Shown: positions 7,489 through 24,020 of the stretch, piece after piece
How the letters are laid out: each line of letters opens with the position of its first letter
Position numbering within the stretch: position 1 is the first letter of the stretch
The notes under the pieces: generated by a model
Databases searched by the model: none
Seen by the model: the letters and a program-made list of their open reading frames with translations, nothing else
What the model was told of the DNA's origin: nothing
Position numbers and translations under genes: made by a program
Origin: Psilocybe cubensis
Taxonomy: Eukaryota
NCBI GenBank assembly: GCA_017499595.2
Contig: JAFIQS020000014.1
Coordinates: 248,001 to 272,020, forward strand
DNA: 24,020 nt
Reading direction: 5' to 3'

Positions 7489-9003
7489 TCATCGTCGTCG
7501 TTGCGTGGGCGGCGGGGGTGCAAGTTCCGATCTCATTGGGGACTCAAACGGGGGCCGAGCCTGCGTTTGAACCCACTCGAGAACGTGTTGCTGTGCTTGC
7601 GAAACAGGTTGCGTCGGCGACTGAGACGGATACGGATTTTGTAGCATCTGGTGAAGTGGCGAGTTTATTGGAGGTAGATTGGCCTGTTTCGTTGATGGCC
7701 GTGGGCCCTTCGGAGAGGGCACAATGTGGCCCGTCCCGAGCGCTGCTTTAGGATGGGTGAATGCATAGCCCGTGTCTACGCCCGCTGAACCAGCCCCGAA
7801 TTCTCCCTCCCAGCCAAGCTTCTCAACGTCAGTACCACGCGTAGATTCGCCATCCACCAACACAGCTCTGTTGTCTGTGGTATGGAGGTGGCTTCCGCGG
7901 TTCGATCCCTTCTTGGAGCCAAAGATTGAGGATCCAGGTATCCATGTCGATGGTGGTGATCTCGGTACCCGGTGCTGGACCATCAAGTCTCGGTCGAAGG
8001 TAAGCCGCTTCATGGTAGTTTGCCGCCGGCGTCGGAAAAAAATGAGAAGGAAGATCAGGAGGCTCAGACCAACAAGTCCACCTATGACACCGCCCACTAT
8101 GGCAGCTGTTTTGTAATGGCTACCCTTGTCGTCAGGTTGTCTGTAAAAAGGAATTCTCAGCACGAGTCCATATGAGTTCAATGGTATTTGGGGGGTTTAG
8201 AAGAGATAATAGCAGAATCCAGATGACGGTCATAGAAACATACGGGACAAGTGTGGACGGTCCATTGGACATATTACTTGTAGTGAAATCGCAAAAAAAG
8301 AAGAGGTGGTATATCAAAGATAGTGATTCCTCTCGTATATCAGAGGTTGGTGGGTTCGGCGATGGGCCGATAGATATACCATCGCCACCGCAGTACTCCA
8401 ACGTAAACCAATTTAGAAAAGATACTTACTCGGTTACGGTGCACTGACTTCTTGCAATAGTTTTGTCCCTTAATAATCGATTTGAGACATGGTCCTCATT
8501 TCTCACTATGAAATAGGCTACTCGTACCCTTGAACAGCAGTGAAGGTGTGGGTTCTAACCAACAGCAAGAAAAATGTTGTATCAGTAAAACTAAAAATTT
8601 ATAATAGGCTATAAAGAGCAATACAGATGTTTGAACGAAGAGCGAACCACTCACCCAGTTTGATTAAATGTTATATTAAAGTGGCCTTTTTGGTCGTGAA
8701 GATGTACGACTTTGGCAAGATGTGGTTTCTTAGTTTTTTGGTGCACAAAAGATATGTTGACCAATTGGCTCCCATCTTGGTGTTCATTGTGGTCAACCCC
8801 CCATCCAATTTTGATATTTGTGTGAACGGGAACTGTAGAATCAAGCTTGATATGGAAGCAGGAGACACTGGAAAAGAGGTAGAAGTGCAAAGAAATGAGT
8901 CTGCAGCACAAAAAGGTCAAGGTCAACGATTTGATTCCAAAACGTTAAAAACGGGTGTACAATGTTTATGATGTAGGATTACTCACAATAGTAACCATTT
9001 CAT
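7489..9003 (-). CDS. Single-pass type I membrane protein, paralogue of the 707-3370 gene
   Basis: Exons 9003-8987, 8900-8655, 8554-8528, 8468-8430, 8276-8244, 8140-7489 (1014 nt, open frame). Spliced signal peptide MKWLLLLISLHFYLFSSVSC; TM AAIVGGVIGGLVGLSLLIFLLIFF followed by RRRR. Tail motifs TFDRDLMVQHR and LGTGHIVPSPKGPR are shared with the 707-3370 gene. Confidence 0.82.
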
Positions 9004-9519
9004 CCTTCCAGCACCAGGCGGAAACTGACAGAAGCGTGTAACCTGCACCACTAAGAACCAAAGAAAGATAAATCAACAACCGCACCAGGCGTCGACGTAG
9101 ACTTTTGAAGAAGACGAAGAGTGGCGTCAAGCTCTCCGACCCAGCGTTCGTCGATCGAAACAAAGAAGGGAGGAAAGTGGGTGGGATATCCGCAAACCTG
9201 CTTAGTTGATATCTGTGTTACACAGTTTCAATCTGGATATTGATGGATGGTTGTCAGCACACTTTGAAAGATCACAGCCTTCAACGTCTGAACATCCAGA
9301 GTGGAGATCATCAAAAGATGGCGAACCTGATGCTGACCATTCCTTAGACTCCATTCGAATGATAGTGGCATCGAAAAGAGGAGCGTTGTGCAGAGCACTG
9401 ATTGAAATGGTATTTTGTATTTTACTGGGAAACTGTATCATTGAGTGGAGGGGCATTGCAAAAGCACTTGTCAGCTAGTTCCGTTGTAAGCAGCAGATTA
9501 AAACAAAGTGTGTAAAATG

Positions 9520-9660
9520 AAACCTGGCACGACGTAACCTTACGTCTCCGGGAGGGCCGATGAATCGGCGGATTTCTTCCTACATTGAGACCGCCGGTAT
9601 CCTTCGTCCTTCCATGATGCCTGGACTCTTTAAGTGCCTGGACTCTTTAAGTCCAGGTTT
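9520..9660. other. Cluster of short hairpins and a 17-bp tandem duplication downstream of the Rep-helicase gene; candidate Helitron 3' terminal structure
   Basis: Hairpins GACGTAA-cc-TTACGTC (9531-9546), GCCGAT-ga-ATCGGC (9556-9569) and CCTGGACT-cttta-AGTCCAGG (9637-9657). Tandem TGCCTGGACTCTTTAAG at 9618-9634 and 9635-9651. Outer inverted pair AAACCTGG (9520-9527) / CCAGGTTT (9653-9660). Confidence 0.6.
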
Positions 9661-9708
9661 AGGGTGGTAGCATTTTTCTATAAAAGGAAATAGGTGGTCT
9701 CGTTCGGT

Positions 9709-12700
9709 CTAGATTGGTCTAGATTGTTCGACGTCGGACTTCGCTATGTTGTCCAGTCTGTTTAACTCGTTGCGCAGTTCTTCAGGTAACCGATTGTATA
9801 TTTTATTCTCAGGGAACCATCGTAGAACTAGTAATCCAGATATGGATTTTACTCTGGAGAGCATTACATATGCACCTTGACCTCTTGCCGTTAATAAATC
9901 AACAATTACCCTATCAAGTGTGCGACCTTGTCCTTTATAGTCTGTGTACGCATACGCTGGTATTAGTGGGACTTGTTTCCGTGTAAAGCTGTCAAACAAT
10001 TTGATATGCTTTTGGTATTTAACATCTATTGAAGTCGAAGAAGGGAAAATTGGAACAACATCTTTTTCTAGCCCGTCTACTTGTATTCCACAACCTTTGA
10101 CGTGTACATACACAGCTTTGCAGTATCGACGGTATTTCTCGTCCACTTCATATTTTATGTCTGTGACTATACCCTCAGTGCCATTGACTATTTTATCATC
10201 GAATGCAATGTTTTCTGTTATCATTACTTTCATTCCAATGAAAAGAGGTAGTTTTCCAAGGGCGTCGTTTGTTTTTGTTGAAGGTAGTCTCCATAATATC
10301 TGTTGGAACTCACCTGTAATCCTTTTTTTGTGTCTCTCATCTCGTGAATAGTATATATGTGGTGATATATTTGCTTTTGTTGAATGGTACTTGATTAGCT
10401 TGGCATTCAGGATGTCTCGTACGGCCTTGTTGCCTACAATGATAGGTGCATCTCTGAACAATGCTAGTGTTTTTGGATTAGAAGCCTGTTTCTGGATAAG
10501 TCTGTTATATATATAATGGTAATCTGACTGTTCATTGTCACTTTTAATATTGTTAATATTACTTCTGCAGAGGCCCAATCTTAGTCTATCAAGAAAAAGG
10601 GCATACTTTATGTCTCTTGCGTGTCTTTCGTTTTTGACTAGTTGTATCACTGTTTTTACTTGTCTCCATAGAAATGCGCCATTTAGTTGTGATGGTCCTG
10701 ACACGTTCCGAGCTTCTGCAAAAGACGGGTTCTTCACCAATTCATTTGCATATAATGGCTTTTGTAGAGGGGGTTTTAGTTGTGCGCAGTCGCCCATAAA
10801 TATTACATTAATTCCTCCGAATGGTTTATTGCTGTTAACGACGTCATCTCCTTTCCCTTGCCTAATTCTGATAGAGATTTCACTGAGGAATTTTGCGCTT
10901 ATCATTGAGGTCTCGTCTATTATTAAAGTTTTTATGTATTTCCAAATTTGAATTAGTTTAAGTTTATTGGGTTTTGCTTGTGACTGATTTGCATGAGATA
11001 CTATCAGTGAGTGTAGTGTTTGTCCTCCGATCAGCACTGCCGCTATTCCGGTCGGTGCTCCTAATAATAACTCATTCCTGCGATGCAAGCGCTCGAATAA
11101 CATAATCAGACATTTTATCAAATGGGATTTACCTGTACCGCCAACGCCTGCAATATGAATCAGCAACTGTTCCTTGTTGTCGGTTATGATATGGTTACCG
11201 ATGATTCGGAACGCCTTTAGCTGTTCTGGGTTATTTAAAAGTCCCATTTCTTCTGCGATGTTGTTCATGGTGTCAGTGTCTGTTATTGAATTGTAATTAT
11301 GACTTAAATCATACAAATCCTGGAGTATAGCTTGCTTGGCAATAGGTGCATAGTTCCCATTGCGATATCGTTTGGGTGGCGTAGTTATGTCGTCTGTGTC
11401 GGGTTCATGTAGCATTGCACGTTTTCTTTTTGATTTCATGATGGCGCGATGGCTTGCTAACAGATCATCCACTTCATGTGATGTTAGAGTTTGTTGGTTT
11501 ACTGGAACTGATTTTTGATATTCCGTGTCCACAGCAGTTTCCGTTGTATCCAGTGGGAGACACATGTCTAGAAATCTTGAAGTTTCCTCTCCTATGTTAT
11601 CTATGGAGTCGTGTAAGTTTGTTGTAAAGTCTTCGTTGGGGTTTTCAATGCATTGGAAGGGATCTGGAGAGTATACATCGTTAGGGTTGAGGGTGTCTGT
11701 ATTACCTTCCGTGTCTGTTAATATTATATCCTGTACTTCATCGGACACTACATCCTCGGATGTTTTTCCACGTCTGCGCTGCCTGTGTGCGTCGCGGGCC
11801 TCGCTACATTCTGTCAAAGCTTGCATGTTCTGTATGATGCGCGTGTGTTCTAGTTTCATTGATATCTCGTAGTTATGAAATGCGTCTGTCCATGTTTCTG
11901 ATGGGGTCTTTAAATCTGATATATCCCTCCACGGTTTGAAGAGGAGTAACATGTCCCTTGCCCAGTCATCTTTTAGTTGATCAGACTTCAATGGATTCGG
12001 AATAGAAGGGCCTAGTATAATTGGTATACAACTTTTTCTTCTGATTGTCATATAATGGGTGAAATACTCAGGGTGCTCGTCGTTTAAGAATGATCCTGGA
12101 CGTACTGCTGTTTCAATGTGTAACATTTCTTTGGTATACCGTTGTTTGATACCCCATGCTACAAAGTCATACAAACACAAATCTATGAATTTGTCGTTCG
12201 CTGGTCTTAAACAATAGTCCAGTCGTTGGTTGGACGCCGTTATGTCTCTGTCACCCATATTTAACTCAACTGACTCTTCGTTTTCTTGTTCGTTGGTATT
12301 GCTTACGTCGTCTAATGTGCTGTTGTTGGGCGTCTGATTGGATTTAGTGTGATGAGACATGCAAAACCTTCTTATACTGTGCCATTTGAGTATAGCAAAT
12401 TTGTGAGATGTGTAGTGGTCGCCTCCGCCTACTAGATAGCTCATTACTTGTGGTTGTGATATTTCCTGTCTGCCCATCATACTATTAACAGCTGTTATGA
12501 TGGCACCCACTGTTTGATTGTCTGATATTTCTGATTGATTTGCGGACATTTTGCTGTACGCTTTACTTACAGCATACGACAACGCGGCCATACCTGCATG
12601 AACTGGTAGAGATGCCTTTGTTATATAATCAGTAACATAGTACAAGAACGCTTTTGCTGCATCTCCTGACCCTACGAATTTAATGTCCATGTTGCACTGC

Positions 12701-15570
12701 AATAAGAATGATACTATATCAGTGTGTTGCGCTAATCTTGGATGGTGTCTGCGGAGTAGTATCTCTTTTGTTATTTCGTCTAATGTAGTCTTTTCCAAGG
12801 TCTGCCCATTTATACCCATTCTGCAATTATTGTCTGATTTGGATTGACCTCGTTCAAGGTATTTCCAGCACGTTGCTTGGTGCTCGTGCCATGCGTACTG
12901 ATGTAAGATTCGCTCCAGGAAGAAGTCGAACTCGAGCCAAAATTGGTTTATATCGGTATAATTTTGTGGGGAAGGTGATTGTATTACACCTGGATGAGGA
13001 TCACCTGTTTCAGTAGATAGTATTCGTCGGGGGTAATCGTTAGTCTGTTGTTCGGATCCTACTGAGTTTGGAAATTCACATTGAATTATAGATTCGATCC
13101 ACATGAACACTCTTGTTTGATAATGTATTGATCGGGTCATTTCATCGCGTAGTTTCTGGGGAGATAAGTGCCCGTGCAACCAAATCAGCATGTGGCAATG
13201 TAATGTTCCTTTACCTTGTGCCTCGACAGTACCGTAGTACGCTGTACATTTGCCGTATAAACCATTTTCCTCGCGCCCGTATCGTAATATGACGTTAATG
13301 AAGTTGTTTATCATTAGGTCAAAAAAACGTGCACATCCTGAAGGGTTCCGTGCTGCAAAGAGTGATCTTCTCCATTTCGTCCAGTCCTCTCCTCGTTCGA
13401 TACTTTCCAATGAAATATCCTCACCCGCTAACAGACGTACGATAGGGTTGTCCACGTCAGACGGGTTGATAGTGATGAATAGTGTTGGTGTTCCTTTATT
13501 ATTAATCAATGCCCTGATTTGGTTACGTAGAGTTAGTTTGTAGCCATCGCTCCCGGGTACGTGTTTTGATACCAGTCTGATCGAAGACAGTAGTCTAAAA
13601 GCTTCTTTTTCTTTTGTTTCTGTTGGTTTGTAATACGGATTTTTCTCACATTCTTTGGTTAAGTGACTTAACATGTCTAAATCGATATTTAACAGTTCGT
13701 TAGCTATTTTCTTGTGTGACGATTGGGATACCGAGAAACGTAGACTCTGGGACACTAGTGCCTTCCGACATATGTTATAGAAAATAAACGCGAATTCTGG
13801 GTCTTTCGCAAACGGGCTGTCGTCTACTAAAAGAAGATGTTTGAGTTGTTCCTCCATGCTTATTTTAATCTTTCGTCCGGGATGGTAAAACCCTCCGATA
13901 CCCCAAGGGTCCAGATGGGGGAATAACCATGTCAAGATCGATGGATTTTGAAAGTCAGGTACCATACTAGATCCTGTACCAGAAGCCAGGAATGGTTTCC
14001 CAGTGAGACATCTCTCCAAAGCAGTTGATTTCATAGTCAGGAATGCCTGTGGTGAGTTGTCTCCAGATGTATATCCTACATTTTCCATCAGTAATTCATT
14101 GTATAATTCGTCCTTTGAATTTTCATCCACATTTCGACATGTATAATCTGCGACGGCTGAGCTGATGGCGTCGTTATCGGTCATAGCGCCTATATGTACG
14201 GCGTGTGGTATACCCTCGTCTTTGTCGTTGTCAAACAAAAGTCTCATATTCTCTTCGCTGTACTCGGTGCTCGCAGAGTATTCTGGATTTTCGGTTAATA
14301 GAAAGTGTATTATTGTCTTTACCCTCGATCTTCGGACTAAGGTAGGTTTATATCTGTGAATGGTCTTACGGTTAGGTAGATCTTTACCGATGAATATAGC
14401 ACACATTGTGTCCCTTATCGTGTCAGACGCAGGTGGTATAACATTGTTCATGCGTATCACGTCTAGCGGTGATACTAGAACGTTTCCTCTTATACCTTTC
14501 CTAGCTCGACTCAACGTATTTTCGTTGTCGTCTTTGTCTTCTGTTTGTGTGGTGTGGTTCAATCTGCACGTGATTACACTGGACCGTGCTCGCGAACATA
14601 ACATCCTGTCGAAGATAGTTGAATGTTCTATCGCCGTCTTCACGGTTTCTGGTAAACTTTCAATTCCATAATACATCCAGTTACACAAAGCAAATTTAGG
14701 CATAGTGAAGGCCGCTAGTGCTTTGTCACATTTTGGACAGAGACATAGCTTGCCAATACGATCACGGTATTCCATGCCTTTATAATGCAGTATGGCCTTT
14801 CTGTAAATCTTGATATCATAAGTCTTAGGTAAAATTGAATCTGGCAAGTGTGGATTTTGTAGTAGATTCAGCTTGGTATTGTCTGGGTTTACCCATATAC
14901 AATCGCGCTTGAAAAACCTCAAAGCGCATGCCGCGCATACTACATTGGACAGTCTGTCCGTAGACATTTCTTGTTTCCATTCCCGTATAATTTTTAATTT
15001 TTCATCTTTCCCGATAGGTTTAAGATGATCTTCGTCGATGGGGACCGCTTTAACTCGATTGGGTTGCTGTGATTCTGTAATCGTATCCGCGCAGTCTATA
15101 CCAGGATTGTCTTGTGGTGGGTTGTTCAAATTTTCTTTGGCAACAGTTCGTCTTTCAAAATCGAAATTGCCACACCGTTCTTCGAAAATACTGAATATAT
15201 GTTGACGTGGTCTTGCCATGCATTTGAAAACATATATCAAGTTACTGCATTTGCTACTGCATTGGTGTTCAAATATCTTAGCGAATAGTTTGGGTTTAGT
15301 TAAACGGGAAAATTGTATGCCATGGGAATCGGCTATGGCTTTCATGTCATTCATAGTAAAATATCTGAACCAGAACATCAGTACAGAGATACTGACAGTG
15401 AATACGAGATTTGTAGTGTCATTTATGTGTTTTATAGCGTCATCATGATAAAGCCATATTGTGGTGAACTTGTAATATTCGTTGAAACGTAACACTTTAA
15501 GCTTTTCTACATATGGACGGCTATATTCGGGTTTGTACCTGTAGATATCGATATCTGAAATTTCGTCCAA
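9709..15570 (-). CDS. Helitron Rep-helicase transposase (N-terminal Cys-rich/DUF6570-like region, HUH Rep endonuclease, PIF1-family SF1B helicase)
   Basis: Uninterrupted 1953-codon ORF. Rep motifs LFITINP, VEAQGKGTLHCHMLIW (HUH) and YYVTDYITK (two catalytic Tyr). Helicase motifs GVGGTGKS (Walker A), IIDETSMI (Walker B), GDCAQLKP, YKGQGRTL and YVMLSRV. The ORF-track start is a TTG, so the true start is uncertain. Confidence 0.96.
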   Translation of the reverse strand: MDEISDIDIYRYKPEYSRPYVEKLKVLRFNEYYKFTTIWLYHDDAIKHINDTTNLVFTVSISVLMFWFRYFTMNDMKAIADSHGIQFSRLTKPKLFAKIFEHQCSSKCSNLIYVFKCMARPRQHIFSIFEERCGNFDFERRTVAKENLNNPPQDNPGIDCADTITESQQPNRVKAVPIDEDHLKPIGKDEKLKIIREWKQEMSTDRLSNVVCAACALRFFKRDCIWVNPDNTKLNLLQNPHLPDSILPKTYDIKIYRKAILHYKGMEYRDRIGKLCLCPKCDKALAAFTMPKFALCNWMYYGIESLPETVKTAIEHSTIFDRMLCSRARSSVITCRLNHTTQTEDKDDNENTLSRARKGIRGNVLVSPLDVIRMNNVIPPASDTIRDTMCAIFIGKDLPNRKTIHRYKPTLVRRSRVKTIIHFLLTENPEYSASTEYSEENMRLLFDNDKDEGIPHAVHIGAMTDNDAISSAVADYTCRNVDENSKDELYNELLMENVGYTSGDNSPQAFLTMKSTALERCLTGKPFLASGTGSSMVPDFQNPSILTWLFPHLDPWGIGGFYHPGRKIKISMEEQLKHLLLVDDSPFAKDPEFAFIFYNICRKALVSQSLRFSVSQSSHKKIANELLNIDLDMLSHLTKECEKNPYYKPTETKEKEAFRLLSSIRLVSKHVPGSDGYKLTLRNQIRALINNKGTPTLFITINPSDVDNPIVRLLAGEDISLESIERGEDWTKWRRSLFAARNPSGCARFFDLMINNFINVILRYGREENGLYGKCTAYYGTVEAQGKGTLHCHMLIWLHGHLSPQKLRDEMTRSIHYQTRVFMWIESIIQCEFPNSVGSEQQTNDYPRRILSTETGDPHPGVIQSPSPQNYTDINQFWLEFDFFLERILHQYAWHEHQATCWKYLERGQSKSDNNCRMGINGQTLEKTTLDEITKEILLRRHHPRLAQHTDIVSFLLQCNMDIKFVGSGDAAKAFLYYVTDYITKASLPVHAGMAALSYAVSKAYSKMSANQSEISDNQTVGAIITAVNSMMGRQEISQPQVMSYLVGGGDHYTSHKFAILKWHSIRRFCMSHHTKSNQTPNNSTLDDVSNTNEQENEESVELNMGDRDITASNQRLDYCLRPANDKFIDLCLYDFVAWGIKQRYTKEMLHIETAVRPGSFLNDEHPEYFTHYMTIRRKSCIPIILGPSIPNPLKSDQLKDDWARDMLLLFKPWRDISDLKTPSETWTDAFHNYEISMKLEHTRIIQNMQALTECSEARDAHRQRRRGKTSEDVVSDEVQDIILTDTEGNTDTLNPNDVYSPDPFQCIENPNEDFTTNLHDSIDNIGEETSRFLDMCLPLDTTETAVDTEYQKSVPVNQQTLTSHEVDDLLASHRAIMKSKRKRAMLHEPDTDDITTPPKRYRNGNYAPIAKQAILQDLYDLSHNYNSITDTDTMNNIAEEMGLLNNPEQLKAFRIIGNHIITDNKEQLLIHIAGVGGTGKSHLIKCLIMLFERLHRRNELLLGAPTGIAAVLIGGQTLHSLIVSHANQSQAKPNKLKLIQIWKYIKTLIIDETSMISAKFLSEISIRIRQGKGDDVVNSNKPFGGINVIFMGDCAQLKPPLQKPLYANELVKNPSFAEARNVSGPSQLNGAFLWRQVKTVIQLVKNERHARDIKYALFLDRLRLGLCRSNINNIKSDNEQSDYHYIYNRLIQKQASNPKTLALFRDAPIIVGNKAVRDILNAKLIKYHSTKANISPHIYYSRDERHKKRITGEFQQILWRLPSTKTNDALGKLPLFIGMKVMITENIAFDDKIVNGTEGIVTDIKYEVDEKYRRYCKAVYVHVKGCGIQVDGLEKDVVPIFPSSTSIDVKYQKHIKLFDSFTRKQVPLIPAYAYTDYKGQGRTLDRVIVDLLTARGQGAYVMLSRVKSISGLLVLRWFPENKIYNRLPEELRNELNRLDNIAKSDVEQSRPI

Positions 15571-15983
15571 CGCGTGAAATCGGAATTAATCCGTGTCAAT
15601 TTAAATTCATTTAATATCAAGTTTCAAGTTTAACCAGATTTGAATTGGATACAAGGTGACGAATCGAATTTTTCATCAGCGATAATTCCCATAGGTAAAA
15701 CGATTACTTACCGCGTTGCAGAGTCGACGCTTTCAACGACGATACCGTGTTTTGTGTGTTAATATAAGTGGTCTGCGTTGTGTAATTTGACAGATAGTTC
15801 TACTATAAGTTTTTGTAAGCGCTCACCATTCTTCAATATATCTGGAAATGGGTCTGTCGGGGCGTTGGTGTTGATTTTATCTGTTCTGGTCTTTTGTCTT
15901 ATTTAAATAGGGTGTACTCGTTTATATAGAGTTTTGTCTGTGTATGGTATCTGGTACTGTTACTGAAATTCGTTCAATGATTC

Positions 15984-16394
15984 TTTAATTGGGTCCAGTC
16001 ACGAACTGTTCATGTAACACCAAGTAGGCGACACTTTGTCCGCCGTGTGTTGTTATTTTGTTTGGTTGTCAGATCATATGAGTAATAGCAACTATCACGC
16101 TAACTAGTCAGCACTTTTACCCATCGTGGGAGGAAGTGTACGTGTTTATGTTTACGTGATGACGTATGCAAGTATTACTGTCACTTAGCTTGTGTTTAAT
16201 TGGGTCCAGTCACGAACTGCTCACGTAACACCAAGTAAGCAACACTTTGTCCGCCGTGTGTTGTTATTTTGTTTGGTTGTCAGATCATATGAGTAATAGC
16301 AACTATCACGCTAACTAGCCAGCACTTTTACCCATCGTGGGAGGAAGTGTACGTGCTTATGTTTACGTGATGATGTATGCAAGTCTTAGCTCGT
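15984..16394. repeat. Two-copy tandem duplication, period 211 bp, between the divergent Rep-helicase and R2-like genes
   Basis: TTTAATTGGGTCCAGTCACGAACTG... begins at 15984 and again at 16195. The copies differ by a few substitutions and by loss of ATTACTGTCA near the end of copy 2. Confidence 0.95.
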
Positions 16395-16508
16395 GTTGTA
16401 AGTGACGGTGTATTGCATTCTGAGTCTCTTTATGTGTAAACCGCGACGTAGATTTAAGGTCAGGTCGTCAGACAGAGTCAGTGTGCGCAAGTTCACAGCT
16501 CCATTGTT

Positions 16509-17822
16509 ATGGCGAATCTTGGTGAGCGCCTCAAATGTCGCGGTTTGTTGTGTTTGTAATGTTATGATAGAGATTCATAGGTTCTCTCCCGCTCGAATTC
16601 TTATTCTTGATGCGCAGGAGCGACTACTCGCTAAGGATTCGCGGCGTTTTGTTCTCTTTCCCATTCGGTACATTAAGGTGTTGTTGTTAATGTAACATTT
16701 TTTCCTTCGGGACTAACTTTGTTTGAATTGCCTTGGAACTGCCCTGTTCAGATTTGGAAAGCATACTTGCATGCTGTGACGACGTTATGGGAAGCACGTT
16801 GTGCTGGTTTATCACGTGACTCTAAGGATTGGACTGAGTGTCTGTCATTCCAACAACGATGCGGTGGCATCTTCTTTTTCAAACTTTCTATTGCTTCTCA
16901 TGGGATACATAAGCGACTATTGGATATAATCTCCAAAGAAATTACAGTCCCAGAAGCACATTGCTATTTCAGTTTCCAGTCGGTCAAGTGGGTGTGAATT
17001 TTTTATACATGGATTTATCTCAGGATTCGATTAACAACGTTCTAACAGTGAAAACGTCCACCAGGAGGCGATGGCCAAGATTACGCACGGTCTCACAGGA
17101 ATTCGAATGGACGATTGCGTCGATGAATGGGAACTCTTGCGTCCAAAGGAAAAATTTATGAATATTTGGACGAGATCTTCCGTGTATCCTTTCTCTGAGA
17201 GGTTGCTCGTTTTTATATTCATTCAAGGAATATTTGGTATTTCTCTGTCCCGGCTTCTACAATGGTTTTCTGGCAAAGATTACCTCCCAACTATGGTATC
17301 TACTTACACCCGGATCTTCAATGACAGGGAATGTCATGTAGACTTTGTCTCGCTGCTTTTTTATCATTTGAAAAGGCGTCCGTTAACCAGTTTTGTCAAC
17401 GAATTCGTCGGGACCATTGTTAAAATCGAAAAAAAATTCGGCAGTGGTATGATAATGGTTTGTTTTTTAATGGTCCGTGTCTGATTAGCATGCTGAATAT
17501 TATAGATTTGCTGGACCTTTCCGAGATAGACATTCCATTAGACGACCTGAATCGGTACGTGGAATGCAAAGCAGACGCCCTTCTGGTGTCTCTTGGGTAC
17601 AAGCAATTGTACGGTACATGTAACAAAGTATGACATTGTTCGTCTGAATTTGGGATTCAGTTGACGAGTTTTTAGGGGATCGATGATCTTATCCCTATCG
17701 TCCCTGGGGAACTGAAAGCTGGTTTTTTTCTCGAGGAGATGGCGCTGGCGTATATCCCCCCAACTATGGAAGACGCTATTTTAGACGGACAGTTCGGTAA
17801 TCATCTCCTTGACCTTTCTTGA
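16509..17822 (+). CDS. RNR2: Highly divergent ribonucleotide reductase small subunit (R2, ferritin-like) homologue; open frame but lacking the radical Tyr and three iron ligands
   Basis: Exons 16509-16521, 16571-16677, 16752-16987, 17049-17446, 17506-17627, 17676-17822 (1023 nt, 340 aa; alternative start ATG 16564). Colinear R2 motifs RRFVLFPI, IWKAY, LSRDSKDW, PEAHCYFSFQ, ENVH, FSERLLVF, HVDFVSLLFYHLKRRP, YVECKADALLVSLG. The symbol denotes the family, not the host's functional RNR2. Confidence 0.88.
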
Positions 17823-18129
17823 ACATGTTATATGGTTTATTCATACTTTTTGTTGATGTAATATCTATGTACCCGCTACTGAAGGGTAAATCCTAGACAC
17901 CGTGGAATAATACAACTTCCTGTTGAAATTAAACCCTTGTCATAGAGTTCTGGATGGGAAGGTGAATACTGTTTCATTCCAATTATCCGTCTGTGGTGAT
18001 TTTGCGCTCTTTAGACTGTATGCCCAGTATCAATCTCGGAAAACTCCAAGCGCGTGGCAATCTATCAGTTCATATTACTGTGACTATCCACCCAACCAAT
18101 GTCCACTTATTATGCTGTGACTAATGTAC

Positions 18130-18282
18130 TCCCACCCCGCGCCCGCGCAGGCGCAGGCGGCACAGCCCAAAGCACCTGAAAACGAGCTCTTCTCGTTCGA
18201 CTTCCACGCACCGTCTCTGGTGCAGAACACGGCTGTGATGGAGCAGCCGAAGAAAGACGTGAAGCAGAATATTTTGTCGTTT
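18130..18282 (+). pseudogene. Short fragment resembling the C-terminal low-complexity region of a fungal ArfGAP (Age2/SMAP-like)
   Basis: GC-rich island encoding PAPAQAQAAQPKAPENELFSFDFHAP...EQPKKDVKQNILS, similar by recollection to the DLFSLDFH...KKDVKQDILSLF motifs of fungal ArfGAPs. No ArfGAP zinc-finger domain nearby. Confidence 0.5.
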
Positions 18283-19119
18283 ACATTAATCAGCGTTTGT
18301 ACGCTGCCTCTGTTTTCTTGTGATTATGATAGACATTAAAATTTCATGTAGACTGTAGGTTGTACAGACTTTCTCATGCTTGGATTAGGGTATGTACCTC
18401 AATGGGTATCTTGGTATCGCTGTGCTTTTCTATACCGCTTCACTGGCGGACTCGTGTTACTCTAGGAGAAGATGGTATGTATGAAGATGTTCTACGCTTT
18501 TGGATGGACAAAGACAAAGAAGGCAACACACCCGACGCGTTGCAGGAGGTTATCGAGCATCTCATGTACCAAGGAAAGGCCTGTCCTCATCTATACTCGC
18601 TTGTTCTGAGGTTCTTGACCTCGACGCCGGAGCTGCTTAACCGACATCAAACTGGTTTGAAGGACATCCTGGAGCATATCGACGACGTGCAATTGATTCT
18701 CCTTGGGAGTCTTACAAGTTTTGAGTCGAAATGGAGTGGCGAGTGTCGGTTTAATGAAGCAATGGTTGATCAAGACGATCAAGGAAAGTAGGAGTGAAAT
18801 TCAGAATGTAAGTTTCCCTTTCTATTTAATCTGTTCGTTGTTTTTCCTTTCGTAGGATCAAGCTCTCACGAAATCGTATCGTCTGGAGATCGTTGACAGG
18901 ATAAAGCAATTTGCTGAATTGACAAACACAGAAGAGTCTCGGGTGTTCTATGACAAGGTGCTCCAGTTACATCGACCAGCTCGATCTTCCCAGCGTGCAC
19001 TTCATGTGTAACCGTTCTTATCATCCATGGTATGTATTGTGTGTATATCTTCTTCTGCGTGTCTTCTGTACGTGTATTCCTCTAATCGCCATTCGCTTGC
19101 TCGTAGGTACATCGCGGAC

Positions 19120-20261
19120 GGGCACTGGAAAATGTCAGTGCAATGTCAGTGCGGTCAGTGCATGTCAGTGCATACCACAGCAATGTCAGTGTAAACTGCA
19201 GTGATGTCAGTGCAGTGTCAGTGCATGTTTCAAATCATCTATAAATTGGTCAGGGTGTGTCAGTGCGTCCTGGGTTATGTTAGTGCGTTGGTTAGTTCAT
19301 CGTGTGGTGGCAAAGTTTTTACTTGTTAGATTGAAAGTCGTGGGCCGTGAGAAAGTTAACTTAGGGAGGATTAAAACATACAGTCTCGGAATTTATGGGC
19401 CAGACATGGCTAAATAACAAGATATAGAAGTAGACATATATTTTCTACATTTTCAAGTAATGATCCGGTGTACTAAATCAAGCATAGATGTTGGAAAATG
19501 AATGAATTATGCTGGAATCATTAGATAGACGCCTCAGAGTATCCCTGTGTATAAATGATCCAATATGCTTGTTTGACAATGATTTGGGATCATACTTGGC
19601 TGCAGGCGCAACAATGCTTTGAAATATTGGCCTTAGCTTGGGTGCGGTTTTTTAGTAGGGAGGACGTCCCTATGACACAGCTAAAAGGGAAAGGGAACTA
19701 GAAAGTCCCATCGGTGCATCCTAGTTGAGCAGGTCTTTGGGACAGTTGATGGACCAGAGGTAATTCATACCAGTCTACCTACCTACCATTGTGTTCTTCG
19801 TTTGAAATAAAAGATAACATGATTATAAGGTAAAAATAATGTCAGTGCATCGTCAGTGCACCATTACTGAAAGTCAGTTTATGTCAGTGCATGTGAGTGC
19901 ACCGTCAGTGCATGTGAGTGCATCGTCAGTGCATGTAAGTGCACCGTCAGTGCATGTCAGTGCACAGTCAGTGCAAATGCTTGGCGGTCAGTGCATGTGT
20001 CAGTGCATCAACTCTTGGCAGTCAGTGTTAAAATAATTCTAGGAGGATACTAGATTTCCAGACACTTAAAATCCGGTCAAAATCCATCTAAGTAATCCTG
20101 CAATAAACATAGTTTTATTGTATAGAAGTACAGACTTCAATTTTTTCACAAATCCTAAGTGATGTCAGTGCATGTCAGTGCATAGACATTATATTGTCAG
20201 TGAATGTCAGTGCCGACGTGCACTTACATGCACTGACATGCACTGACATTTCTTGTTGCCC
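19120..20261. mobile_element. Non-autonomous Mutator/Foldback-like DNA transposon, 1142 bp, 9-bp target-site duplication
   Basis: Perfect ATCGCGGAC at 19111-19119 and 20262-20270. Imperfect TIRs: left GGGCACTGGAAAATGTCAGTGCAATGTCAGTGC, right reverse complement GGGCAACAAGAAATGTCAGTGCATGTCAGTGC. No transposase ORF. Removing it restores the VPS11 frame YIAD|NEV. Confidence 0.9.
19134..20250. repeat. Three clusters of ~10-bp (T)GTCAGTGCA repeats inside the Mutator-like element
   Basis: Clusters at ~19134-19226, ~19838-20030 and ~20162-20250. The last cluster switches to inverted CACTGAC copies after ~20220. Confidence 0.92.
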
Positions 20262-21092
20262 ATCGCGGACAACGAAGTCGGTAATAACATGGAGATTTGT
20301 TTGAAGGGCGGTGGTGTTATACCAACGTCTGTCTGTCCGGAATGCGGTGAAGCTAATAGAGGAGTGTTTCACATGTTGCTTGACACAAATACTGTAGATT
20401 CACGTTTCGAAGGAATCCTCAGGGACATGGGCGTCACTGATCGAGTTTTCTACTGACACAGACAGTGTATCTCATGACAAACGTGGTCTTATATTTCTGA
20501 ACCTGGTGAAATGATAGTTTAAATAAATAAATGTCATATGCAATGAAGCTCATGTACTTTGTACTGAATCGCGAACGATCGCAAAGCAACCTCCATCAAC
20601 TTAAATAATTCCCGTGATTGAAAGGAAGTGGGTTTTGTGGTTTTTTTTTTAATCGCCAAATTTTGGCGCGTTGGGTCGTGTCTCTGCAACCATTTACATA
20701 AACTCATACGTTTCACGGTCAAATTCGGTCCGCTGATCCTCTTTTTCCTTGTGCAGTTTCCGTGTGGCAATGTTTTGTTTCACGAACTCTTTCGTTGTTG
20801 ACCCATGTATCGTTGCTTATGGTCTGCTTTTATATTGAGATAGCCTCCAGGCCTGTGTCTGTCCCGTTTGACTCTGTAAATACCCATTCTTTACTGTTTC
20901 GCTTTCCTTTAAATTTCTACGCTTGTTCTTCGTTGTATCGCTGCTATTGACCATTTTTAACAGTGACATCACTCCTAACCTATCTCTTACGTCTGCTGTG
21001 CGATTTGTCGTATTGTCGGAGGAGTTAGATGTCGACTCAGTCATTGGCGATAGTTAGTTGCCTGTTTGTGAAGTGTATAAGGTGCGTGTCTG

Positions 21093-21142
21093 TTTTTTTT
21101 TTTTTTTTTTTAGTTGTATTCTAATCCTCAATACCTGATTAT

Positions 21143-21192
<50 letters not shown>
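21093..21192. repeat. Two poly-T tracts (T19 at 21093-21111, T49 at 21144-21192)
   Basis: Read directly from the sequence. Confidence 0.95.
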
Positions 21193-21193
<1 letters not shown>

Positions 21194-21194
<1 letters not shown>

Positions 21195-21269
21195 CTACAA
21201 ATTGCTTAATTACATGCCTTACAAAATCCAATTTCATACCTACGAATTGCTTAATCCCATGCCTTACAA
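21194..21269. repeat. Imperfect 31-bp direct repeat, period 45 bp, abutting the long poly-T
   Basis: CCTACAAATTGCTTAATTACATGCCTTACAA (21194-21224) and CCTACGAATTGCTTAATCCCATGCCTTACAA (21239-21269). Confidence 0.85.
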
Positions 21270-24020
21270 CAATATTCAATAACATGCATTTTACCTCTCT
21301 GAAAAGTATGATTTGTATACTCTGCCAAACAGTCGTTGGCATTGCCGGTGTCGAACGGTGTCACCGTGAATTATAAAATAGGGGCATGTTTACTACTGAC
21401 GCTAATTCCAAACAAACGGACCGCGTCGGATTTGACTGCGGGCCCCAAGCATGATTTTTTTTCCACCATTTTTTCGAGGTCGATTGTCGTTCAGTCTCAG
21501 CGACATCGATCTCAGTACCACTAATCATCGTTTACGATATTGCACGCCATAGTCACTCCAAAAGCTTCATCATCAACCCTTAGAATCCTCAGAAGGGACT
21601 TTACTCGAACCGGCAAAAGATGATCGTCACTGTACAGGAAGGCTAGCACTTGTCTACCTAGACCTACCACCTTGCAACATATCATATCATATACACGTAC
21701 ACCGAGGCAACATCTTCGCAGGCCATATACTACAACAGCGACCGGGCAGTACCGTCATCTTCCGACACTTCCCCACCCAACACGAATATGAACCAGAACC
21801 GGAATCAGAAATAAATCCCATAACATTCGCTGACCCTCGTCGGCCCGACCTGTTCTACTATTACACTCCCGTTCCAATGCCATTCTCACCCGTGCTCCCG
21901 GCCTTCGCACTGTCATATTTTGATACTCTTCCCTGCTAGTGCTGTTGGCGGGGAGGGCTCCGAAGCATTGATTGGGTGGCTTCCTGTACAGACGACTGTC
22001 GAAGGAGGAGTGAAGGGAGGGGCAATACATGGAGAAGGGCAGGGTTCAGCGTTGGATGATTTCATAGGGAACGGTAAGTCTTGTATTCAATTTCCTCTCT
22101 GCTTGAGCGCGTAGAAAGTGCGGCGGGTGCGGTTTATGCTGCCCTGCACCCCACCCTTTCTGTTTATCTGAAAACAAGAAAATTCTTAACTGATACTCTG
22201 ATATCGATACGATGAAGCAACAGACAAATTTCTCTCGTTCCTGCACATCACCATCCAAACTGTACTTGAACAGGGACAAGACGATATTCGGAGAGATGCC
22301 GCTATTGCCCATGGGAATGGCTGGATGCATATTGGCGGTAGGTCTCTTTGCTTCCATTCCTTAAACCTATTTCAGTTCTTCGAACCGAGACCCCACTTAA
22401 ATACGGGTCAAAACTCATGTTTATTTCGCCTATGTATGTGCGGTGAATAGATCAGCGGAATATTCAAGTACTGGGACGCGTCGGTGATCCAGACGAAATC
22501 TTAGTGTCTGTGCTCGTGCAGGATGGAAAGGTGAATGATTCAATGATAATCTCTCTTCACGTCGCTCCCTTTAAAGCCACTTCCAATCATCCCCATATCC
22601 ATGACCGTATGCTGACCCAACAATTTTTCCCTCTCCAAACACCCAGATTGTACCAGGCACATACGATGCCATGCCTTCATATCTGATATGCACCGTCGAT
22701 GGTGTGTTGCAGTTCATTCTCGTGCTCGTTGGATGTCTTAGGGAAGTCTTGGTCCAGTCTTGGGCCGCTACTGCTGATGTAGACCAGGCGTATTCAGTGG
22801 GATGAGCACCTTAAACCTGGAGCCAAAAGCTGACGTGATTCGAAAATGTTGGTAACCGGACTTGAATGGCAAAGCGACGAGCGTGCCGCTGCAAATGGAA
22901 ATGTCCACTTCACCTTCAACCGTCACCATCACCACCACCCCTCTTCAAGGTTCCAACAAGACACCACCAGTCCCCTTCAAGGCTCTAAAAACATTTACAT
23001 GGACTCGAATCGTACGGTAGTATTGTTTCGACGGACAATATAAACGAGCTCTGCGCGGGTTAGTCTATATGGATGTGGGCTACACAACAGACACCAGCGG
23101 TACGTACCTGGATGTACTACAACCAACCATCGCTAACACATCCTTCAAAACTTCAACGATACACCCGCGTGGACTCGACCCGCGACCGTATACTGGACGA
23201 TAAACGGGTCAGTGTGTATAAATGGACACTGCAGACATATCTGGTATGCACCTGCATTACATACCAAACCACTCTCCCTAATACACTCAGAACACCGCCA
23301 ATCGTCTGTTCAGCGCCGTCCGGTCATGACTGACGGAGGTGTACCTGTATTATGTTAGTGATACTGGACTCGGTCTCTCAGCATGGCAGGTATACACCTG
23401 CATTCCATACCCTCAACACCCACTCAGAACCCTACCCGTTGAGTGTCTGTCGCCGTTTTCCACCACTGCTGATGGACTGTTCAGTTAGTCCACTTCACTT
23501 ACTATACTCGATAATGTGTGCTGCGCCGCAGCTTGGAAGTCGCGTCGGGAATGTCAAGGTTCGTGCAGATCAGCTGGTATAATTAATCACTATCTAGTCA
23601 CCCTACCCGTATCTGCTAATCCCACCAAGCACAGCAATTGCAGTGTCCTTCCACCCATCCCTCAACTGGTCAGACTGGGCTTGTTGGTGATGACGGTAAT
23701 CAGACGGAGATCCGTGTATAGGCAGTAACGTGTTTATTGACCTACAGGTGTGGATGCAAAGTCAATCATCATGCGAGGAGACAAAGGACGTATAGGGTAC
23801 GTATCTTTTCTACTGGTCATTCGGGTTAACGACGCGTCCCATGTTCAATAACACGCAGTTCGACTGTGAGTCGGGCGCGGTAGGCCACGTCGTATCCCAG
23901 TATTGTGCTGGGTGACATGTAAGAGGCTGAGACTCACCTGACCAGCATGCTAGCGTGGCGCGATCCGTCGTCAAGTGCATTCTCCGTGGGGTGCTCCTTG
24001 GACAACAGGTGTCGTGTCAG

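What the first reader, a model, noticed from the sequence alone, without database searches (positions are those of the whole stretch)
16509..17822. Helitron-associated, intact but catalytically rewired ribonucleotide reductase R2 homologue
Seen: a six-exon, stop-free 340-aa gene colinear with eukaryotic R2, about 1 kb from the Rep-helicase ORF. Aligned by eye to the class Ia R2 consensus (E. coli D84, E115, H118, Y122, E204, E238, H241): ASDG->ASHG (Asp->His, 16899-16901); ENIH->ENVH (kept); HSETY->HQEAM (radical Tyr->Met, 17071-17073); VEGIFF->IQGIFG (Glu->Gln, 17224-17226); RDEGxH->NDRECH (Glu->Arg, His kept, 17323-17337). Established: R2 is normally very highly conserved and needs the di-iron/tyrosyl radical, and yeast Rnr4 is a precedent for a ligand-deficient R2 that acts as a partner of active Rnr2. 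Inference: heavy divergence with no stop or frameshift and with all splice sites intact contrasts with the decayed VPS11 fragment next door and implies selection. The element may carry a domesticated pseudo-R2 that heterodimerises with host R2, titrates RNR inhibitors or otherwise tunes dNTP supply for rolling-circle replication. I know of no description of such a Helitron module, but cannot check the literature.
Basis: partly seen in the sequence, partly recalled or inferred. Interest (0 to 1): 0.88.

Follow-up and report, generated by a model that had tools for sequence, protein, structure and literature searches.

The report
Helitron-carried, radical-dead ribonucleotide reductase R2 gene
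A rolling-circle transposon of mushroom-forming fungi carries its own copy of the small subunit of ribonucleotide reductase, and in this copy the iron and radical site is gone while the gene itself has stayed whole.

Summary
Six GT-AG exons (16509-17822, +) give a stop-free 340-aa R2 homologue, identical to a protein annotated in Psilocybe cubensis. It keeps E120, H123 and H215. It has His for Asp, Gln and Arg for two Glu, and Met for the radical Tyr.

The Helitron link is real and goes beyond this window. The protein is identical at three or more loci, each with the same neighbouring gene.

In 9 of 15 assessable metagenomic loci holding relatives of the Rep-helicase, an R2 gene sits in the same place. 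It lies upstream of the Rep-helicase, head to head, with shared intron positions. Gymnopilus dilepis and one Logan contig show the same linkage.

R2 and Rep-helicase trees share 6 of 8 splits (1 of 20,000 label permutations does as well).

Some element copies keep every catalytic residue and evolve under dN/dS 0.12-0.18, like the transposase (0.14-0.21). Others, including this one, have lost them, in part independently, yet stay open, folded and alignable.

Best reading: an old Helitron cargo gene that has become a pseudoenzyme under relaxed purifying selection. How it acts, whether by binding R1 or host R2 or not at all, is untested. I found no description in print.

The parts
16509..16521 (+). 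R2-like gene, exon 1 (ATG + 10 nt)
   Evidence: Joins in frame to exon 2; the spliced CDS equals P0001
16571..16677 (+). R2-like exon 2 (N-terminal strand, ..RRFVLFPIRY..)
   Evidence: HMM columns 4-28; the intron after it (16678-16751) was recovered by the junction finder
16752..16987 (+). R2-like exon 3; holds W53 and His90 (16899-16901, in place of the Asp ligand)
   Evidence: Pfam PF00268 profile positions 12-89; alignments
17049..17446 (+). R2-like exon 4; E120, H123, Met127 (17071-17073, in place of the radical Tyr), Gln178 (17224-17226), Arg212, H215
   Evidence: PF00268 E=8.5e-15; ligand columns
17506..17627 (+). R2-like exon 5 (last core helix)
   Evidence: PF00268 profile positions 246-276
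17676..17822 (+). R2-like exon 6: C-terminal tail with Y318 and ..AILDGQF followed by 8 more residues, then stop 17820-17822
   Evidence: low pLDDT, as expected for a disordered tail; the tail is the best-kept part against the nearest relative P0068
15586..16508 (.). Head-to-head intergenic region shared by the Rep-helicase and the R2-like gene; holds a 194-nt tandem duplication (15984-16177, 16195-16388; 96%)
   Evidence: no ACGCGT box
9709..15585 (-). Helitron Rep-helicase ORF (stop to stop 1958 codons; first in-frame ATG at 15378; TAG stop at 9711-9709)
   Evidence: Helitron_like_N 3e-36, DUF6570 1e-24, PIF1 1.2e-22. HCH and GVGGTGKS motifs are invariant among 15 relatives. Relatives reach 66% identity
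9618..9657 (-). 3' end of the element: hairpin CCTGGAC-TTAAAGA-GTCCAGG, then CA; the last 17 nt occur twice in tandem (9651-9635, 9634-9618)
   Evidence: The left-flank contig of other strains stops at 9618. Contigs with other flanks start to match at 9635. Sequence
18124..18788 (+). Second passenger gene (P0002, 204 aa, no family found), repeated together with the R2-like gene
   Evidence: tblastn; consecutive accession numbers with P0001 at three loci, and fused to it at a fourth
19120..20261 (.). Nested 1142-bp high-copy non-autonomous DNA transposon: TIR GGGCA../..TGCCC, GTCAGTGCAT subterminal repeats, 9-bp target duplication ATCGCGGAC at 19111-19119 and 20262-20270
   Evidence: k-mer depth 4-8 times that of the neighbouring contigs in three DNA runs

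Best explanation
The 340-aa gene is the cargo R2 gene of an autonomous Helitron of agaric fungi. The ancestor of this Helitron family took up a eukaryote-type R2 gene of ribonucleotide reductase, introns included. It lies just upstream of the Rep-helicase on the opposite strand, and the two genes have been inherited together since (shown). In some lineages the cargo R2 still has every di-iron ligand, the radical Tyr and the radical-transfer Trp and Tyr, and it is as constrained as the transposase. It is therefore probably an active beta subunit that works with the host's R1, as the R2-only poxviruses do (inferred). In the lineage leading to this window, and in part independently in others, the Tyr and three of six ligands were replaced. 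The protein therefore cannot make the tyrosyl radical (inferred from established class Ia chemistry). Since then it has evolved about 2.5 times faster than the Rep-helicase, yet it has kept its reading frame, five introns, R2 fold, a predicted dimer interface and a recognisable C-terminal tail (shown). I read it as a pseudoenzyme under relaxed purifying selection that acts, if at all, by binding. The partner would be host R1 through the tail, or host R2 as a heterodimer (inferred, untested).
For: Mobile unit: P0001 is identical at three or more loci on 3 contigs, each followed by P0002; two more loci hold a fused and a truncated model. Rep-helicase and R2 contigs have like k-mer depth with 0 mismatches in three DNA runs, while the left flank differs (51-64 other letters) and stops at 9618.

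Recurrent module: R2 exons were found in 9 of 75 metagenomic loci fetched with the Rep-helicase profile. That is 9 of the 15 loci that hold the Rep-helicase N-terminus and at least 2.3 kb upstream, or 8 of 14 after merging L012 and L025. In every case the gene is on the opposite strand, 420-1730 bp from the Rep-helicase. Gymnopilus dilepis has CVT26_000571 (R2-like) and CVT26_000573 (Rep-helicase) on one 89,235-bp contig. P0068 and P0208 both list a contig of 18,868 bp.

Unit boundaries: L007 and L025 are 82% alike from about 135 bp beyond the R2 3' end to just after the Rep-helicase stop, with unlike flanks.

Descent: intron positions are shared at profile columns about 28, 107, 245 and 286. 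The tree holding all 12 Helitron-linked R2 together has a log-likelihood 11.2 higher than the free tree (p-AU 0.74). 6 of 8 splits are shared with the Rep-helicase tree, matched by 1 of 20,000 label permutations.

Selection: dN/dS is 0.12-0.18 for R2 L007/L025 against 0.14-0.21 for their Rep-helicase. It is 0.29-0.37 for the degenerate pair L013/L016 over 121 codons. P0001 and P0068 are 45% identical (21/47) at columns conserved in cellular R2, against 28% (29/102) and 26% (15/57) elsewhere (p=0.014). 0 of 20,000 shuffles are stop-free.

Fold: AF2 pLDDT 85.3, pTM 0.85; Foldseek against human RRM2 3olj_A gives TM 0.90.

Dimer: homodimer model score 0.42 against a best control of 0.00. The mark was reached by 21 of 30 solved one-chain pairs and 0 of 23 single chains. 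On eukaryotes it was reached by 17 of 29 pairs, but by only 1 of the 7 with no older solved relative. The runs agree in at least 77% of contacts and the partner's pLDDT is at least 83. R2 dimers are solved, so the pass may be from memory.

Precedent: poxvirus R2 forms hybrid complexes with host R1, and a radical-dead mutant is dominant negative (abstract of PMC2900304).
Against: There is no expression evidence. No listed holder of the stretch is on record as RNA, and the one presumed RNA run that was laid has contigs on the flanking host gene only.

The module is dispensable. 6 of 15 assessable relatives lack it, L016 has a frameshift and L013 lacks the segment with the E/H/Y motif. One P. cubensis copy is fused or deleted (P0003).

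The Mantel test on path lengths between the two trees is not significant (rho 0.32; 804 of 10,000 permutations).

No relative of this particular copy is close enough for a dN/dS of its own; the nearest is 32% identical.

The tail does not end in the canonical free aromatic residue: 8 residues follow ..DGQF.

The 5' end of the element in the window was not found, and the 3' end lacks CTRR.

The nine metagenomic loci come from three records with neighbouring ids, probably one campaign. Pairing P0068 with P0208 rests only on equal contig lengths.
Confidence: 0.6

Rival explanations
1. Dead cargo on its way out. After losing its catalytic site the gene has no function. It is open only because the last burst of transposition was recent and decay is slow.
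For: Loss or breakage is common in the family. 6 of 15 assessable elements lack R2, L016 is frameshifted and L013 has a gap. The fused P0003 copy exists. The rate is 2.5-3 times that of the Rep-helicase in the degenerate clades. There is no RNA evidence.
Against: The copy has diverged by about 1.2 changes per column on its own branch, and to 32% identity from its nearest degenerate relative, without one stop or frameshift in 340 codons and five introns. A neutral sequence would be expected to decay far more in the time the constrained Rep-helicase took to change by 1.15 per column. Degenerate forms are also open in Gymnopilus, Galerina, the Logan contig, L001, L008 and L020. Conserved columns are kept preferentially among degenerate pairs. 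dN/dS is 0.29-0.37 in L013/L016.
Confidence: 0.25
2. The value to the element lies in cis, not in the protein. The captured R2 gene supplies a bidirectional promoter, or a transcript, that drives or times Rep-helicase expression.
For: The head-to-head layout with a short shared intergenic region (420-1730 bp) is invariant in all 10 elements. RNR genes are cell-cycle and damage regulated (established knowledge; passages of PMC4245953).
Against: It does not explain coding-level constraint: dN/dS is 0.12-0.37 and the frames stay open. There is no ACGCGT box in any of the 9 R2-bearing intergenic regions, and CGCG is not enriched. The intergenic DNA is not conserved between subfamilies.
Confidence: 0.08
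3. It is still a working radical-generating subunit with an unusual cofactor, as in the class Ic or Ie type.
For: Three ligand positions remain (E120, H123, H215), His90 could bind metal, and Glu213 sits one residue after the lost Glu. W53 and Y318 of the transfer path are kept.
Against: The radical-bearing position is Met. By my recollection the known Tyr-less or metal-free classes keep either a full metal site or the Tyr. Here Tyr and three ligands are lost together. Sister degenerate copies carry different residues at these columns (L, I, C, H; Q/K; R/V/N/L), which does not look like a new conserved site.
Confidence: 0.03
4. An ordinary host paralogue of RNR2 that merely lies beside a Helitron insertion.
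For: It is annotated as 'ribonucleoside-diphosphate reductase small chain'. The 5' end of the element was not mapped in this window.
Against: Identical copies on three or more contigs. The same layout in 9 metagenomic loci, in Gymnopilus and in a Logan contig. Congruent trees. In L007/L025 the homology block covers both genes and then stops.
Confidence: 0.03

Closest known systems
Yeast Rnr4 (ligand-deficient R2 that pairs with Rnr2; PDB 1jk0, 1sms)
   Same: An R2-fold protein without a full di-iron site that has been kept as a gene. P0001 matches 1jk0_B at 122.8 bits, and its model matches 1sms_A and 1jk0_B. Yeast R2 is an Rnr2-Rnr4 heterodimer (passage of PMC4245953).
   Different: Not an orthologue: the Rnr4-like rows P0011 and P0017 form their own clade (97-99 SH-aLRT) away from the Helitron R2s. 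Rnr4 is a host gene, whereas this is transposon cargo. The lost residues differ (P0017 keeps the Tyr column). Pairing with an active R2 was not tested here.
Poxvirus R2-only strategy (vaccinia F4 and other chordopoxvirus R2)
   Same: A mobile genetic parasite that carries only the small subunit. Viral R2 forms hybrid complexes with host R1 to supply dNTPs, and a radical-dead R2 that still binds R1 is dominant negative (abstract of PMC2900304). The ligand-complete Helitron copies (L005, L007, L012/L025) fit this model.
   Different: A nuclear DNA transposon of 8-14 kb has a far smaller dNTP need than a virus. The window's copy lacks the radical site. No binding or activity data exist.
Captured genes of Pleurotus ostreatus HELPO1 Helitrons (capA-capF)
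   Same: Intact, intron-bearing passenger genes inside autonomous Helitrons of Agaricales, amplified with the element (passages of PMC4289320).
   Different: The cap genes lie downstream of the Rep-helicase and are of unknown origin and function. Here the passenger is upstream and divergent, has a clear enzymatic ancestry, is shared by many diverged subfamilies and co-diverges with the transposase.
RPA-like accessory gene of plant Helitrons
   Same: A DNA-replication-related host-type gene kept as a second gene of Helitrons (abstract start of PMC4683698 in the listing).
   Different: A different protein and a different kingdom. I saw only the start of the abstract.

Membership tests
RNR small subunit R2/beta (Pfam PF00268, ferritin-like) | Sequence match above the curated cut-off | tested here: met
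   146.7 bits against 33.6, profile positions 1-276 of 281
RNR small subunit R2/beta (Pfam PF00268, ferritin-like) | R2 helical-bundle fold | tested here: met
   AF2 pLDDT 85.3, pTM 0.85; Foldseek 3olj_A TM 0.90 (target-normalised), rmsd 2.0 A
Catalytically competent class Ia R2 | Six metal ligands (Asp, Glu, His, Glu, Glu, His) | tested here: not met
   3 of 6 kept (E120, H123, H215); His90, Gln178 and Arg212 replace the others
Catalytically competent class Ia R2 | Radical-bearing Tyr | tested here: not met
   Met127. 123 of the 156 rows aligned show the canonical E-H-Y-E-E-H pattern
Catalytically competent class Ia R2 | Radical-transfer Trp and C-tail Tyr; C-terminal R1-binding peptide ending in a free aromatic residue | tested here: inconclusive
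   W53 and Y318 align with the canonical residues (the tail alignment is weak). ..AILDGQF is followed by 8 more residues
Catalytically competent class Ia R2 | Homodimer | tested here: inconclusive
   Model score 0.42 against a best control of 0.00 (21 of 30 solved one-chain pairs and 0 of 23 single chains reach the mark). The runs agree in at least 77% of contacts and pLDDT is at least 83. The pass may be from memory of solved R2 dimers
Rnr4-type inactive partner subunit | Common descent with Saccharomycotina Rnr4 | tested here: not met
   Separate, supported clades
Rnr4-type inactive partner subunit | Heterodimer with an active R2 that it stabilises | not tested
   The host R2 of this genome was not available; no job was sent
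Autonomous Helitron | A single ORF with Rep (HUH, catalytic Tyr) and PIF1-type helicase | tested here: met
   H796-C797-H798, Y983/Y987 and G1480-S1487 are invariant in 15 relatives
Autonomous Helitron | 5'-TC / 3'-CTRR termini with a subterminal hairpin and no target duplication | tested here: inconclusive
   A hairpin lies at 9657-9637, but the end reads ..GGCA and not CTRR. The 5' end was not located and there is no terminal inverted repeat
Autonomous Helitron | Several near-identical copies at different sites | tested here: met
   Cargo proteins identical on three or more contigs; contigs with other flanks at 9635
Helitron cargo (gene inside the element) | Gene lies within the block shared by copies with unlike flanks | tested here: met
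   Met for relatives L007 against L025/L012. For the window itself it is inferred from co-repetition and equal depth

The most novel reading that the evidence does not exclude
A whole family of fungal Helitrons has carried a ribonucleotide reductase beta-subunit gene since its origin, as an auxiliary metabolic gene of a eukaryotic DNA transposon. The gene is as constrained as the transposase while it is active. It has turned into a radical-less pseudoenzyme in several lineages, in part independently, and is still kept. That would mean Helitron transposition depends on, or profits from, manipulating the host's RNR: first by supplying R2, later by a non-catalytic grip on R1 or R2.
Probability: 0.4. 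Interest if true: 0.85.

Novelty: new variant of a known kind. Interest (0 to 1): 0.75.

Why it matters
Helitrons are known to pick up host genes, but conserved accessory genes with a clear biochemical role are few. An R2 gene that co-diverges with the Rep-helicase and is under equal constraint would be the first nucleotide-metabolism gene known as a standing part of a eukaryotic DNA transposon. It would link rolling-circle transposition to dNTP supply in the way already known for large DNA viruses. The series from complete to radical-dead copies within one family is also a natural experiment in how an enzyme becomes a pseudoenzyme. It gives ready-made constructs for testing which R2 surfaces matter without catalysis. 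For genome annotation, these genes are currently labelled as ordinary RNR small chains.

Tried and rejected
- The whole genome of the window is not held, so other copies, a separate canonical RNR2 locus and the 5' end of the element could not be examined.
- RNA: no listed holder of the stretch is on record as RNA. The presumed RNA run X4 gave contigs only at 7512-9148 (a spliced host gene) and at the nested transposon, none on the Rep-helicase or the R2-like gene. This is no evidence either way.
- A direct search with P0001 found no relative in metagenome contigs (152 pattern matches, none confirmed) or in viral contigs (1 match, none confirmed).
- No P. cubensis Rep-helicase protein of 1076-3427 aa was returned, so linkage could not be read from accession numbers.
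- A terminal inverted repeat for the 3' end: no match of 12 nt or more anywhere in the window.
- Promoter capture with MluI-type boxes: ACGCGT is absent from all 9 R2-bearing intergenic regions.
- Mantel test on path lengths: not significant. I attribute this to unequal rates, and used shared splits instead.
- VPS11 identity of the neighbouring gene: nothing in Pfam, PDB sequences or the Atlas. A resemblance of 20262-20453 to a VPS11 C-terminus is only my recollection.
- dN/dS for L005/L007 and L001/L008 is saturated.
- A heterodimer job with a stand-in host R2 was not sent, because a pass would only mirror the solved Rnr2-Rnr4 structure.
- Earlier findings of this scan: two look-ups, nothing returned.
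- Supplements of the papers were not seen. The cap-gene tables of PMC4289320 might list an R2-like gene.
Full report
**1. What is in the window**

Reading 16300-18100 in three frames gives six coding pieces joined by five GT..AG introns of 48-74 nt. Joined in a script, they give 340 codons plus a stop, letter for letter P0001. That protein is annotated 'ribonucleoside-diphosphate reductase small chain [Psilocybe cubensis]'.

Pfam PF00268 matches the whole protein at 146.7 bits against a cut-off of 33.6. None of 20,000 shuffles of the CDS is stop-free, and the other two frames hold 11 and 19 stops.

- Asp to His90.
- Glu120 and His123 kept.
- Radical Tyr to Met127.
- Glu to Gln178.
- Glu to Arg212.
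- His215 kept.

Trp53 and Tyr318 align with the radical-transfer residues.

The AF2 model is confident (pLDDT 85.3, pTM 0.85) with a disordered tail from about residue 296. It superposes on human RRM2 at TM 0.90.

The neighbouring 1958-codon ORF on the other strand (9709-15585) is a Helitron Rep-helicase with Helitron_like_N, DUF6570 and PIF1.

**2. The gene is far from every cellular R2**

An exhaustive phmmer run over 1.84 billion representatives found 1575 relatives at E up to 0.001. Nothing outside P. cubensis exceeds 32% identity. The best-scoring named proteins are ordinary R2s of fungi and animals.

For scale, Agaricus R2 is 88% identical to Scleroderma R2 and 73% to zebrafish R2, but only 30% to P0001.

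**3. It moves with the element**

P0001 occurs unchanged under three GenBank accession numbers on 3 contigs. Each is followed by the next accession number for the 204-aa protein P0002, whose gene lies at 18124-18788. A fourth locus encodes a fusion of the two (P0003, with one substitution and an internal loss), and a fifth gives a shorter model (P0004).

I laid contigs of three DNA runs on 4021-24020:
- The Rep-helicase piece (9694-16060) and the R2 piece (16326-18627) have like depth and no mismatch.
- The contig of the left flank carries 51-64 differences, stops at 9618 and runs on into unlike sequence.
- Other contigs begin to match at 9635 with different letters before it.

The 3' end of the element therefore lies 75-92 nt after the Rep-helicase stop. 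It sits at a hairpin followed by a 17-nt unit present twice.

The contig break between the two genes coincides with a 194-nt tandem duplication. The 5' end was not found. A 1142-bp high-copy transposon with a 9-bp target duplication is nested at 19120-20261.

**4. The same module in other Helitrons**

Among the best 150 hits, four ligand-poor R2s stood out:
- P0068, from a Logan contig.
- P0129, Gymnopilus dilepis CVT26_000571.
- P0052, from Galerina marginata.
- P0001 itself.

They share derived features such as Ala plus a hydrophobic residue in place of Thr/Met-Tyr after the His ligand. They form a clade apart from other degenerate R2s: Rnr4-like, Cryptosporidium, Synchytrium and algal (SH-aLRT 97).

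P0129 lies two locus tags from a Rep-helicase (P0199, CVT26_000573) on the same 89,235-bp contig. P0068 and the Rep-helicase hit closest to the window's (P0208, 68%) both list a contig of 18,868 bp.

I then searched metagenomic contigs with a profile of 15 Rep-helicases. 494 stretches matched, 89 were confirmed and 75 loci were kept. tblastn and a profile scan of all six-frame ORFs found R2 exons in nine of these loci and in no others: L001, L005, L007, L008, L012, L013, L016, L020 and L025.

In all nine the R2 gene is on the opposite strand, 420-1730 bp upstream of the Rep-helicase ORF, as in the window.

Fifteen loci hold the Rep-helicase N-terminus and at least 2.3 kb upstream. Nine of them have R2, and six (L003, L006, L009, L010, L011, L015) do not. 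L012 and L025 are one locus (99.5% identity), which makes it 8 of 14. The nine come from three records with neighbouring ids, so they are probably one campaign.

**5. One unit, one history**

L007 and L025 are 82% alike from about 135 bp beyond the R2 3' end through the Rep-helicase. L024 and L025 stop being alike about 15 nt after the stop codon. Outside these limits the flanks are unrelated. The unit is thus about 7.7 kb and holds just the two genes.

Exon limits fall at the same profile columns (about 28, 107, 245 and 286) in the window and in the loci. A junction finder that reproduces the window's introns exactly finds in-frame GT..AG introns there.

Support for a single history:
- Holding all 12 Helitron-linked R2s together gives a better tree than the free search (log-likelihood +11.2, p-AU 0.74).
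- For 11 elements with both genes, 6 of 8 splits of the R2 tree recur in the Rep-helicase tree. Only 1 of 20,000 label permutations does as well.
- Against this, a Mantel test on path lengths is not significant (rho 0.32; 804 of 10,000 permutations), which I put down to very unequal R2 rates.

**6. From enzyme to pseudoenzyme**

L005, L007 and L012/L025 keep all nine key residues and are 61-64% identical to Agaricus R2. For L007 against L025, dN/dS is 0.12 (NG86) to 0.18 (YN00) over 304 codons. Their Rep-helicases give 0.14-0.21 over 1730 codons.

L001, L008, L013, L016, L020 and the four named proteins have lost various ligands. At the Tyr column they carry C, Y, L, H, M, I, L and L, so at least some losses are independent.

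State of the degenerate copies:
- L016 is frameshifted and L013 lacks about 50 columns.
- The cores of L001, L008 and L020 are open with usable introns.
- The degenerate pair L013/L016 gives dN/dS 0.29-0.37 over 121 codons, against 0.12-0.15 for their Rep-helicases.
- In the degenerate clades the R2 path is 2.5-3 times the Rep-helicase path (2.88 against 1.15 for the window and the Logan pair). In the complete clade the ratio is about 1.
- Pairs of degenerate proteins are more alike at columns that are conserved in cellular R2. For P0001/P0068 the figures are 21/47, 29/102 and 15/57 (p=0.014). For L001/L020 they are 29/58, 33/126 and 8/67 (p=1e-6).
- Between P0001 and P0068 the tail around Tyr318 is the best-kept stretch, about 13 of 26 positions by my count on the alignment.

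The N-terminal extension of cellular R2 is missing. About 80 residues precede the ..EPLL motif in Agaricus R2, against 20 in P0001 and 15 in L007.

**7. How it may work**

What is shown is descent, linkage, constraint, fold and loss of the radical site.

The ancestral role is inferred. A complete R2 without R1 fits the R2-only poxviruses, whose R2 forms hybrid complexes with host R1 (abstract of PMC2900304).

For the window's copy, catalysis as a class Ia R2 is excluded by Met127 and three lost ligands (established chemistry). A radical-dead R2 that still binds R1 is dominant negative in vaccinia (same abstract). A ligand-poor R2 can also serve as partner of an active one, as in yeast Rnr2-Rnr4 (passage of PMC4245953).

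A homodimer model passed its controls: score 0.42 against a best control of 0.00. The mark was reached by 21 of 30 solved one-chain pairs and 0 of 23 single chains. On eukaryotes it was reached by 17 of 29 pairs, but by only 1 of the 7 with no older solved relative. The runs agree in at least 77% of contacts and the partner's pLDDT is at least 83. It uses residues 32-35, 45-54, 87-90 and 111-140. R2 dimers are solved, so this shows likeness only.

Which partner the protein binds, and whether it is made at all, is open.

**8. Known or new**

Full-text searches for Helitron together with ribonucleotide reductase terms gave 12 and 77 papers. By their titles and abstract starts, none describes an R2 gene in a Helitron. 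Searches on Helitron accessory genes and on P. cubensis added none.

Castanera et al. 2014 (passages) describe intact passenger genes of unknown function downstream of the Rep-helicase in Pleurotus HELPO1. Supplements were not seen.

I therefore rate this as a new variant of a known kind: Helitron cargo, here with a defined enzymatic origin, family-wide conservation and a gradient of decay.

Noticed in passing
window 19120-20261: A 1142-bp non-autonomous DNA transposon with imperfect terminal inverted repeats (GGGCA../..TGCCC), arrays of GTCAGTGCAT subterminal repeats and a 9-bp target duplication ATCGCGGAC (19111-19119, 20262-20270). Its k-mer depth is 4-8 times that of the neighbouring contigs in three DNA runs. 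The 9-bp duplication suggests a Mutator-like element; that assignment is recalled, not tested.
   Followed up: partly
window 18124-18788 and 20262-20453: The second passenger gene P0002 (204 aa) has no family in Pfam, the PDB or the Atlas. An open 64-codon stretch with a CxxC motif follows directly after the nested transposon. It may be a further exon of the same captured gene, split by that insertion.
   Followed up: partly
window 15984-16388: A 194-nt tandem duplication (96% identity) sits in the shared promoter region between the Rep-helicase and the R2-like gene. It is where short-read contigs break.
   Followed up: no
window 9618-9651: The last 17 nt of the element (CTTAAAGAGTCCAGGCA on the element strand) occur twice in tandem at this insertion. 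Other copies seem to end after the first unit. The end is not CTRR.
   Followed up: partly
window 7512-9148: A host gene on the minus strand left of the element is covered by contigs of a presumed RNA run. These include a splice that removes 8901-8986 (CT..AC on the plus strand).
   Followed up: no
L009 8497-9201, L010 8514-9215, L003 about 8318-8569 (minus strand): In one R2-less clade of the Helitron family, the slot upstream of the Rep-helicase holds a gene of another, unnamed family. That family also occurs elsewhere in the flanks of several loci, which suggests the cargo slot is exchangeable.
   Followed up: partly
L012 14481-15968: L012 carries an insertion of about 1.5 kb in the Rep-helicase compared with the otherwise 99.5% identical L025.
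   Followed up: no
proteins P0057, P0158 (Ostreobium), P0138 (Cryptosporidium), P0136 (Synchytrium), P0076, P0150: Ligand-deficient R2 homologues turn up in several unrelated eukaryotes among the 150 best hits. Some carry the same Gln and Arg/Lys replacements at the two Glu columns. They do not group with the Helitron clade.
   Followed up: partly
L005, L007, L012 last exons: The ligand-complete Helitron R2s end in ..F-E-L (or ..FELYD) and not in the ..D-x-D-F end of the fungal and animal R2s aligned here. Even these copies may therefore dock on R1 differently.
   Followed up: no
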